A DNA stretch of 64,000 nt from Schmidtea polychroa. Taxonomy: Eukaryota. Below, in pieces: positions 14,879 to 16,912 of this stretch (position 1 is the stretch's first letter; every line of letters starts with the position of its first letter). Location of the stretch: contig CM097885.1 in NCBI GenBank assembly GCA_044892525.1, forward strand, positions 29,700,001 to 29,764,000, read 5' to 3'. The position numbers were made by a program, and so were the translations under genes. A model generated the notes under the pieces. It was not told the DNA's origin, did no database searches, and saw only the letters and a program-made list of their open reading frames with translations.

Positions 14879-15476
14879 CAAATCATCGCGTCAGATGGGG
14901 ATGAAGTTCAAAATCTCGCAGTTTACACCACTCGAATTCTTACGCTTCCCCGACCGTAAAGTAAGTCGTCTACAAACGATTTAATGCCAACACGTAAATC
15001 ATTAAAAATGATTCAAACATCCAAACTATTTTCATAGAATGGTTAGAGTTTAAATATATGGCTAAGCCACATCCACTAACTTGCGTTAATGAATAATAAT
15101 ATTGCCTCATTACGAGGATGGCACAAAATATCATGATTTTTAGGCGAGATTCAGACTTAGAGGCGTTCAGTCTTAATCTCTCGGATGGTAGCTTCGTGCC
15201 ACTGACCTTTTGATCAAGCACATTTACCAGTGATCCGAATCTGCGGTTCCTCTCGTACTGACCAGAATTACTATTATCATGACAAATTATATAGTAGGGT
15301 AAAACTAACATGTCTCACAACAGTCTAAACCCAGCTCACGTTCCCTATTAGTGAGTGAACAATCCAACGCTTTGCGAAATCTGCTTCGCAATGATAGGAA
15401 GAGCCGACAACGAAGGATCAAAAAGCGACGTCGCTATGAACGCTTGGCCACCACAAGCCAGTTATCCCTGTGGTAA
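14879..15476 (-). pseudogene. 28S rRNA: 28S (LSU) rRNA 3'-terminal fragment, PTC to 3' end
   Basis: Minus strand reads TTACCACAGGGATAACTGGCTTGTGG..TTTTTGATCCTTCG..GGGAACGTGAGCTGGGTTTAGAC; sarcin-ricin loop AGTACGAGAGGAAC at 15246-15259; CTGAACGCCTCTAAG; GTAGACGAC. Confidence 0.95.
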
Positions 15477-16912
15477 TAGCACAAATTCGAAAATCGGAGA
15501 AGATGAAAACATCACAACAATATCAGAAATACAAAAATTACATCAAAAAAACAGTCATTTGGAATCAGGAATGCAGATAATGATGAAAATGATGCAATCA
15601 TTGACTGAAGAAATAAATACTCTAAAAAAATGATGGACAAATCACAAAATGGGAATGAAACAGATAAAAATAATCAAAGAAACAGTTATGCCCAAATTGC
15701 CAAAAAATCAAATAGCAATTTAAATTTCCAAGAAAATGATAAAAATTTGAATTTTACAAATTGTAAAAAAAATTCAAATTCGGAAGAAAATAATAAAAAT
15801 TTAAATTTAAATTCAAATTTAAATACAGAAAATCAAGAGAATTTAAATATTTTAAAATCAAATATTAATGATTTTAAAATTTCGAAGAATACATCATTTA
15901 AAAATTTTAAAAATAAGAAAGATTTTATAAATAATAAAAATGATTTTAAGCCAATAATCAATCAACACTGAAATCCAGATCTGCGCTGAGAAAATTAATA
16001 CTACAACACTGAATTCTCAACCAGTAGAATCAAACAGAAAGAGAAGAAAGGCAATCTTAGCAAGTGATGAAGAGCAAAATCTTCCAAAAAAGACTAATAA
16101 TCATAAAGAGCAACCCATATTCGACCAACCTGAAAAATTGATTGGAGGAGGACCAAGTGATAATGAGAACTTCCAGATCCACGTTACTAATGAACTAACC
16201 TACAAATGTGCTCTGATTGGATGCCAATCCAAATCTGAATCATTAGCCGGGATTAAACAGCATGTATCAAGAGCCCATAAAATCAGGACAACATACACTA
16301 AATGCCATCAATGACCAAACAATATTCAACAACATGAAATTGAAGAACATGTCAAATATCATAAAGAGTTGACAAATAAATATAAAGATGCGAAAATGGA
16401 TGTCATAATTCCAACAAAAAATGACATTCCTTCAAACATCGCATGACTAGCACAGTCAGCTATCGAGGCTCAAATAAGATCAATCATAAAAGAGCCTAAG
16501 AACAAAGATAGCATAATCTGTTACTTAAATCCCCAGTGCGCTAATGACCTAATATCAAACAACAGGAATGGCCTCTTTAAAAAGTTAAAAATGGATGCCC
16601 TTGTTGGATGTGAGCTTACTATTTGGCTAATCCATTGGAATAAAAGTCATTGAACTGTATACCTTGCAGAAAGGAAAAACAGGACGTCAGTAATTATGGA
16701 CCCTGACAATCAAATGTCTCAAGAACTTAAGATTTCCATCAAAAAGAAAATAAATGATATACTGAGAATAACTTCCTCCGAGCAAGACAATGAAATGCAA
16801 TTAATGAACATCCCAATCTATCCAACTCAGACAAACAAATATGATTGTGGAGTGTTCGTTATTCAATATATAATGGACTTCCTAGAAAATCCGGAGAGGC
16901 CCATATTCAATA
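15477..16912 (+). mobile_element. Family C element 5' part, decayed: coiled coil, Asn-rich region, LIGGG, two C2H2 fingers, protease
   Basis: CALIGC...HVSRAH, CHQ*...HVKYH, WLIHWNKSH*, YDCGVF; several premature stops. Confidence 0.85.

What the first reader, a model, noticed from the sequence alone, without database searches (positions are those of the whole stretch)
15436..15520. Several protease-bearing retrotransposon families insert antisense at one 28S site next to the peptidyl-transferase centre
Seen: two different element 5' ends follow antisense 28S ...CCAGTTATCCCTGTGGTAA (15476|15477 and 7750|7751). Two different 3' ends are followed by (TT)TCTGACACCTC (37861|37862 and 9541|9542). 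Established: intact antisense 28S reads GTGGTAA-CT-TTTCTGACACCTC, so the halves rejoin with 2-4 nt lost and no target duplication, about 14 nt 5' of the E. coli A2451 equivalent. This is well downstream of the R2 site (TTAAGG^TAGCCA) and opposite to the orientation of R1/R2. Inference: a multi-family lineage shares this target. Caveats: no single element here retains both junctions, and planarian NeSL/R5-group families in Repbase may already cover this site, so novelty is unproven.
Basis: partly seen in the sequence, partly recalled or inferred. Interest (0 to 1): 0.85.

Follow-up and report, generated by a model that had tools for sequence, protein, structure and literature searches.

The report
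Planarian retrotransposons sharing one rDNA site
Several related jumping-gene families in this flatworm-type genome sit backwards at one exact spot of the large ribosomal RNA gene, a spot already published in 2015 for the planarian element LIN9, and they carry a short copy of that spot inside their first gene that likely lets them join the target precisely.

Summary
The site and the antisense orientation are real but already published. Kojima & Jurka 2015 (S6 Fig) show planarian LIN9_SM at exactly GTGGTAAC^TTTTCTGACACC, antisense, without target duplication.

The window is a high-copy mosaic array of dead fragments, so its 11 junction strings are 4 events. Only two are true rDNA junctions (15476|15477, 37861|37862). 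7710-7750 is the element's own copy of the target, and 9542 has only 16 nt of 28S-like sequence.

The multi-family inference holds genome-wide. I found 59 copies with both junctions in rDNA units, in six 3'-end types, with ORF2 proteins 44-72% identical.

Not in the papers I saw:
- The elements carry a 42-50 nt target copy in frame inside ORF1, kept by compensated indels, behind a fixed ~50 nt leader.
- In precise insertions ORF1 opens from the antisense-28S ATG (47 of 48 copies).
- An ORF1-only family uses the same site.

ORF1 and ORF2 are split by one in-frame TGA-C, likely read through. The scan noted this before on other DNA of this genome (e1-7879953).

Verdict: new members of a known kind, with an unusual 5' end.

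The parts
14647..15476 (-). 3' end of 28S rDNA plus downstream spacer (rRNA on the minus strand); upstream half of the target; repeated in the units whose junctions end at 30162 and 53716
   Evidence: 830 nt at 97.1% to an intact unit; Rfam RF02543 at 14880-15285 and 15303-15524
15436..15476 (+). Antisense-28S ATG and following codons (MNAWPPQASYPCG), in frame with the element's ORF1
   Evidence: Open for 65 codons in this decayed copy; 107-1251 codons in 47 of 48 precise rDNA copies
15477..16930 (+). 5' part of subfamily A (F1 lineage): broken ORF1, TGA-CTA at 16444-16449, start of the Ulp1-like protease; true 5' junction at 15476|15477
   Evidence: 75.8% nt to F1 over 15480-15967; PF02902 hit at E 3e-6, below 1e-5 and above Pfam's cut-off; stop context
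7667..7709 (+). Element 5' leader of subfamily B, joined to a protease fragment rather than to rDNA
   Evidence: 82% match over 55 nt to the sequence upstream of F1's internal target copy; coordinates
7710..7750 (+). Element-borne, diverged copy of the upstream half of the target (+1/-1 indel pair, frame kept); not an rDNA junction
   Evidence: 42 nt at 92.9% to 28S; same haplotype as the internal piece in 8 F1 hits; ORF of 212 codons
7751..8270 (+). First 5' unit of subfamily B ORF1
   Evidence: 74.8% nt to F1 positions 1-505
3575..7390 (+). Subfamily B fragment: ORF1 helical domain, zinc-finger motifs, TGA-CTA at 4784-4789, Ulp1-like protease and RT; endonuclease missing
   Evidence: PF02902 E 2e-11 and PF00078 E 3e-29; 64% aa to F1 ORF2; ORF1 domain
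33167..37861 (+). Family D fragment: ORF1 piece, TGA-CGG at 33605, zinc fingers, protease, RT, CCHC, PD-(D/E)xK-type endonuclease motif (466-bp duplication inside), 3' UTR; broken by frameshifts
   Evidence: Translations; Pfam; 95-97% nt to the 3' part of rDNA-inserted copy L114
37862..37912 (-). Downstream half of the 28S target after the family D 3' end (repeated at 60948)
   Evidence: 51 nt at 100%, resuming at the canonical position
9270..9557 (+). Short LIN-like 3' end (to 9541) followed by 16 nt of target-like sequence; decayed or off-target; seen only inside the array
   Evidence: 15 of 16 nt match; 150 genome matches, the 100 listed all in array regions

Best explanation
These are fragments of LIN9-type non-LTR retrotransposons (planarian R5/LIN lineage) that sit antisense at one 28S site, likely inserted by target-primed reverse transcription and likely joined at the 5' end through their own 42-50 nt copy of the upstream target. 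Shown: ORF1 (with a ~150-aa helical domain), one in-frame TGA-C, then protease, RT, CCHC and endonuclease; a fixed 3' junction; six 3'-end types in rDNA units; the target copy in frame in ORF1 behind a fixed leader; and an ORF1-only family at the same site. Inferred: the endonuclease nicks the rRNA-sense strand at CAGAAA^AG and primes cDNA. Transcription starts about 50-55 nt before the target copy. The cDNA end anneals to the upstream target, which drops the leader, leaves no duplication and puts the 28S's own antisense ATG at the head of ORF1. ORF2 is made by UGA readthrough, and the ORF1-only family borrows ORF2 in trans. The window itself is a dead mosaic of such pieces that was later amplified as a 15-23 kb array.
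For: Site, orientation and lack of duplication equal LIN9_SM. Of 60 double-junction rows (59 copies), 28S resumes at the same base in 57 and one T earlier in 3 poly(T)-tailed copies. Of the 59, 48 are precise 5' joins, 2 keep the leader plus the target copy (L102, L174) and 9 are 5'-truncated. Two precise joins carry the element's own variant bases inside the flank (L118, L173). ORF2 proteins of F1, F2, F3, F4, F5b and D are 44-72% identical. Full-length F1 (13) and N (8) copies are at least 99.5% alike and ORF2 is intact in 27 of 28 F1 copies. ORF1 is open from the target ATG in 47 of 48 precise joins, against 2 of 7 truncation events. The four families' first 300 nt are unalignable, yet each has 60 open codons (shuffle P 0.0007-0.004). 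The ATG lies 24 nt before AGTTAT in 24 of 28 target-copy variants and the other 4 differ by one base; three different compensated indel pairs were read by eye. Twelve distinct non-rDNA N copies start at the same point. TGA-CTA or TGA-CTC stands at the same place in F1, A, F2, F5a and F5b; UGA-CUA/CGG is the Type II readthrough context (PMC3159437 passages).
Against: No biochemistry and no RNA evidence. Identical copies may be amplified by rDNA crossing-over or be redundant small contigs, so copies are not events. Some copies are chimeras, with one family's 5' end on another's 3' end (L113-L118), so recombination after insertion also happens. The leaders hold their own upstream in-frame ATG, so the 28S ATG need not be the normal start. 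F3, F4, D and L137 have sense codons at the conserved stop position; F3 and D have a TGA-C elsewhere, and D's is seen only in the array. Specificity is loose for family N, which has many dispersed copies. Placement in the R5/LIN cluster was not tested against named LIN or R5 proteins.
Confidence: 0.88

Rival explanations
1. The window's junctions are rearrangement breakpoints in a satellite mosaic, not insertion junctions.
For: The window is a mosaic of 99+% identical units. 7750|7751 is inside an element, 9542 has 16 nt of similarity, and 28S stops after 51 nt at 37912.
Against: The A and D junctions fall on the same bases as in intact rDNA insertions of their lineages (L111, L187, L114, L115) and as in LIN9_SM.
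Confidence: 0.07
2. There is only one family (a LIN9 orthologue) with recombined variants, not several families.
For: Window A and B are 73% alike and chimeric copies exist.
Against: ORF2 identities of 44-72% and a tree with several long, supported branches; unalignable 5' ends; distinct 3' UTRs.
Confidence: 0.04
3. The internal target copies are DNA-level relics of unequal crossing-over between inserted rDNA units and play no part in integration.
For: Tandem 5' units vary in number (1-3), and rDNA arrays recombine (established). The variant bases at L118 and L173 could come from later crossing-over.
Against: Dispersed copies outside rDNA begin at one fixed point upstream of the copy. The copies carry family-specific haplotypes shared across subfamilies about 75% alike. 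Truncated copies, which lack the copy, lose up to 13 more upstream bases.
Confidence: 0.2
4. ORF2 is made by reinitiation or from a separate RNA, not by UGA readthrough.
For: No translation data. A stem-loop 3' of the stop is supported in F1 only (z -3.9), not in F2 (z -0.1) and weakly in F3 (z -1.6).
Against: The stop is always TGA followed by C and in frame, across families 31-72% identical. In F1 the first Met after it is about 90 codons on, past the protease's HW motif.
Confidence: 0.2

Closest known systems
LIN9_SM of Schmidtea mediterranea (Kojima & Jurka 2015, PMC4640811; passages, S6 Fig parts 1-2 of 3 and a supplement search seen)
   Same: Identical target, antisense orientation, no duplication. 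The 28S line of S6 Fig matches this genome's major rDNA type over 120 nt (by eye). Several LIN9 5' boundaries in S6 Fig show a diverged target copy, and its 5' end reads in frame with the same ATG for the 21 codons shown (my reading of the figure).
   Different: The window's 5' and 3' termini differ from LIN9_SM's. The paper lists one family at this site; here there are at least six 3'-end types. The passages I saw say nothing on target copies, start codon, readthrough or an ORF1-only family.
LIN24_SM and LIN26_SM (same paper, S6 Fig)
   Same: Two planarian families sharing one antisense 28S site, with some off-target copies: multi-family sharing is already known in this lineage.
   Different: Their site is about 630 nt away, near the R2 site; long poly(T) tails.
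R1A of the Drosophila melanogaster group (PMC2718515; abstract and passages seen)
   Same: 6-27 nt of upstream 28S on the RNA anneal to the target, giving precise 5' joins, 'insertion site rearrangement' duplicates and 28S tags on non-rDNA copies.
   Different: R1 is in the sense orientation and uses an APE endonuclease (recalled); the passages seen do not describe its tag as coding or as part of tandem 5' units.
NeSL-1 and Utopia-1_TSP (PMC4640811 passages)
   Same: Ulp1-like protease upstream of RT, with a C-terminal zinc finger and restriction-like endonuclease.
   Different: They target spliced-leader and U2 genes; Utopia generally encodes one protein.
R5 of Girardia tigrina (Burke et al. 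2003; recalled, paper not seen)
   Same: Planarian NeSL-clade element in 28S with two ORFs (recalled).
   Different: Inserts near the R2 site and only in the minor rDNA type (recalled); here most insertion flanks read are of the major type.

Membership tests
R5/LIN lineage of the NeSL clade | Reverse transcriptase domain | tested here: met
   PF00078 at E 3e-29 to 9e-25 in four window ORFs
R5/LIN lineage of the NeSL clade | C-terminal CCHC finger and restriction-like endonuclease | tested here: met
   CxxC...HxxxxC and PD...D.K motifs read directly in window D and in intact F1 and F2 ORF2; no Pfam hit on the window pieces
R5/LIN lineage of the NeSL clade | Ulp1-like cysteine protease upstream of RT (documented in the paper for nematode NeSL and Utopia-1_TSP) | tested here: met
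   PF02902 at E 2e-14 to 2e-11 in four window ORFs
R5/LIN lineage of the NeSL clade | RT phylogeny inside the R5/LIN cluster | not testable with these tools
   No Repbase sequences held; the homologue search gave 6 proteins, none named R5 or LIN. The local tree groups the G000 site families together (94/97, drawn open), with F5a outside.
LIN9_SM-site elements | Insertion at GTGGTAAC^TTTTCTGACACC, antisense to rRNA, no target duplication | tested here: met
   Rfam puts the rRNA on the opposite strand
LIN9_SM (the Repbase family itself) | Terminal sequences of LIN9_SM | tested here: not met
   Window ends and F1, F2, F3, N ends differ from S6 Fig by eye; the poly(T)-tailed types F4 and F6 look closest
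R2 | Sense insertion at AAGG^TAGC | tested here: not met
   The site is 542 nt away and the orientation is opposite

The most novel reading that the evidence does not exclude
This lineage has turned its rDNA target into part of its own gene. The RNA starts with a short leader and a protein-coding copy of the 28S target, repeated in tandem 5' units. Each precise insertion spends one unit and lets the antisense 28S strand supply ORF1's start codon. A conserved UGA-C readthrough meters protease-RT-endonuclease against ORF1, and a protein-coding ORF1-only parasite family competes with at least five RT-bearing families for the same nucleotide.
Probability: 0.5. Interest if true: 0.62.

Novelty: new member of a known kind. 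Interest (0 to 1): 0.38.

Why it matters
rDNA-targeting retrotransposons are being developed as site-specific gene-insertion tools (background knowledge), and precise 5' joining is their weak step. Young, intact F1 and F2 copies give testable enzymes for a second conserved 28S site in the antisense orientation. Their natural 5' homology arm gives 48 precise joins in 59 copies. The locus also shows at least five lineages, 44-72% identical, coexisting at one nucleotide with a non-autonomous family. The site itself is not new, so the value lies in the 5'-end design and the probable readthrough.

Tried and rejected

Ribozyme: Rfam at E<=1 on four full elements with flanks gave rRNA plus two weak hits below gathering score.

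ORF1 helical domain: no Pfam family. The model is fair (pLDDT 78.8), Foldseek found nothing at E<=0.001, and the best VIA Z was 5.9, within background, so the fold is unassigned.

The 9541 end: I fetched 20 of the 32 non-array places ending in ...AATAAATTTTTGAC. They share only about 22 nt with it and have unrelated flanks; most belong to another, dispersed LIN-like family. They do not test this end.

Anopheles RT1/RT2 as users of the same site (recalled as antisense 28S inserts): the paper is not held and the searches did not find it; unverified. R5 and R9 orientation: searches gave nothing usable, and the review I asked for is not held.

Literature on target copies, start codon or readthrough in LIN/R5: searches and the supplement search found none. 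S5 Fig gave no text, and Repbase Reports and Burke 2003 were not seen; these may already describe the two-ORF layout.

The numeric column was wrong, so I read its printed sequences by eye. An earlier count said 29 variants; the table has 28.

Full report
1. Observation. Self-comparison shows the window is a mosaic array of near-identical 15-23 kb units, so its six 5' and five 3' strings are four events. The array continues beside the window, at the far end of C1 and in unplaced contigs. Rfam finds only the 3' end of LSU rRNA, on the minus strand, in three units. The ORFs carry an Ulp1-like protease (PF02902) and RT (PF00078); family D also shows CCHC and PD..D.K motifs. All window elements are broken.

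Against an intact rDNA unit of the same genome, the four junctions differ in quality. 15476|15477 has 830 nt of rDNA upstream at 97.1%. 37861|37862 has 51 nt downstream at 100%. 7750|7751 has only 42 nt at 92.9%, and 9541|9542 only 15 of 16 nt. The two 5' ends are 72.6% alike. The cut is 16-17 nt from the A2451 equivalent (numbering recalled) and 542 nt from the R2 site.

2. Already known. Kojima & Jurka 2015 (PMC4640811) state that planarian LIN9_SM, LIN24_SM and LIN26_SM target 28S (passage; also PMC5035012). Their S6 Fig shows LIN9_SM at exactly this site, antisense, with no duplication. LIN24 and LIN26 share another antisense site. The site, the orientation and the idea of two families on one site are therefore in print for this lineage.

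3. The genome test. G000 has 771 exact empty sites (control 0), 625 of them of one rDNA type. Patterns for non-intact 3' junctions gave 68 and 98 matches. Three are T-number variants of the empty site and 58 are array copies of D, leaving 105, a lower bound. One search examined 65 stretches chosen from these lists, not all matches. It returned 60 rows with both junctions in rDNA (59 copies, as L174 = L250); 10 further junctions had only the 3' side scored and were left out. The 3'-end types were F1 32, N 14, F2 7, F4 3, D 2 and F3 2. The 28S resumes at the same base in 57 rows and one T earlier in the 3 poly(T)-tailed rows. Apparent loss in precise joins is 0-3 nt, with no duplication. ORF2 proteins of F1, F2, F3, F4, F5b and window D are 44-72% identical; window B is 64% identical to F1, and window C and E are 91-94% identical to F5b. 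Thirteen full-length F1 and eight N copies are at least 99.5% alike, and 27 of 28 F1 copies have an intact 1089-codon ORF2, which suggests recent activity. Copies are not events: rDNA crossing-over and redundant contigs can multiply them, and some copies are chimeras of two families.

4. The 5' end. Many elements carry an internal, diverged 42-50 nt copy of the upstream half-site, often in tandem 5' units of 222-660 nt. The piece at window 7710-7750 has the haplotype of F1's internal copy, so it is not an rDNA junction. In 47 of 48 precise joins ORF1 runs 107-1251 codons from the antisense-28S ATG. Among 7 truncation events (9 copies) only 2 run past 22 codons. The first 300 nt of F1, F2, F3 and N do not align, yet each is open for 60 codons in that frame (shuffle P 0.0007-0.004). 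Among 28 target-copy variants, 24 have ATG at the expected spacing and 4 differ by one base; three different compensated indel pairs are visible.

Of 30 loci read from 53 matches to the N leader, 12 distinct non-rDNA copies and one rDNA copy switch from flank to element at the same point, 50-55 nt before that ATG. One duplicated pair starts at the inner leader, one copy starts slightly later, and 13 are internal. The leaders hold their own upstream in-frame ATG. My reading is that the RNA runs leader, target copy, unit, body, and that the cDNA end anneals to the target and drops the leader. L102 and L174 are joins where annealing failed and the leader stayed; L118 and L173 carry element variants inside the flank. 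This works like Drosophila R1A, whose RNA carries 6-27 nt of upstream 28S (PMC2718515 passages), but here the tag is coding. How the unit number is restored, and what promoter drives an antisense element, are unexplained.

5. Two ORFs, one TGA. TGA-CTA separates ORF1 and ORF2 in frame in 28 of 28 F1 copies, in window A and B, and in F5a and F5b; TGA-CTC does so in F2. The stop sits where Ulp1 proteases have a Trp (motif recalled). F3 (CGA), D (CTA), F4 (TAC) and L137 (TCA) have sense codons there. F3 has TGA-CAA and D TGA-CGG further upstream, D's only in 67 array copies. UGA-CUA/CGG is the Type II readthrough context (PMC3159437 passages). Readthrough is inferred, not shown. I saw the pattern; an earlier scan note on other DNA of this genome reports the same reading (e1-7879953), which is not independent evidence.

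6. Family N is 1.8-2.2 kb, encodes only an ORF1 homologue (about 48-50% identical to F1 in the helical domain) and gave no RT match. It sits at the site with both junctions (14 rows) and is also dispersed. Mobilisation in trans is inferred.

7. Verdict. The window shows real but dead and amplified remains of LIN9-type elements. The headline is published; the multi-family sharing is confirmed and unsurprising; the coding target copy, the probable readthrough and the ORF1-only family are the parts I did not find in print (searches; Repbase Reports and the R5 paper not seen). New member of a known kind, interest 0.38.

Noticed in passing
window 1-64000; G000 C1 29.65-29.92 Mb and 271.4-271.6 Mb, C19, C23, C37, C82, C88, C94, C99, C143: The window is part of a large higher-order array (15-23 kb units, 99+% identical; 67-150 copies of individual pieces) built from dead LIN fragments, a 28S 3' fragment and AT-rich repeats.
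   Followed up: partly
window 4784-4789, 16444-16449, 33605-33610; L171-L190, L248: A single in-frame TGA followed by C separates ORF1 from protease-RT ORF2 across families 31-72% identical; candidate programmed readthrough.
   Followed up: partly
L101-L105, L140, L238-L245: A young 1.8-2.2 kb family encoding only ORF1 (no RT match) is inserted precisely at the same 28S site and is also dispersed.
   Followed up: partly
L105, L107, L108, L110, L112, L113, L114, L117, L118: Units with an insertion at this site often also break at the R2 site (reference 2063) or near the LIN24/26 site (reference about 2150), so inserted units collect further insertions.
   Followed up: no
L031 (major rDNA type): The R2 site reads TTCAGG^TAGCCA rather than TTAAGG^TAGCCA in this rDNA type.
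   Followed up: no
L113-L118: Chimeric elements pair one family's 5' end with another's 3' end (F2- or F3-like 5' ends on D or F4 3' ends), suggesting recombination or template switching between families at the shared site.
   Followed up: no
L191-L210: Another LIN-like family ending ...AATAAATTTTTGAC is dispersed with unrelated flanks, a few starting TTTCT, suggesting lost or weak target specificity.
   Followed up: partly
L104, after the last 5' unit of family N: The inner leader is followed by a C-rich/G-rich inverted repeat (read as CPPAGG) instead of the target copy; Rfam gives no ribozyme match.
   Followed up: partly
window 3575-4033; alignment A1: ORF1 holds a conserved ~150-aa all-helical domain with no Pfam family and no clear structural match.
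   Followed up: yes
G000 C3 about 0.70-0.87 Mb (L151-L163): Thirteen F2-like 3' ends in a cluster; the two read are followed by only about 25-30 nt of 28S, so this looks like a second small mosaic array.
   Followed up: no
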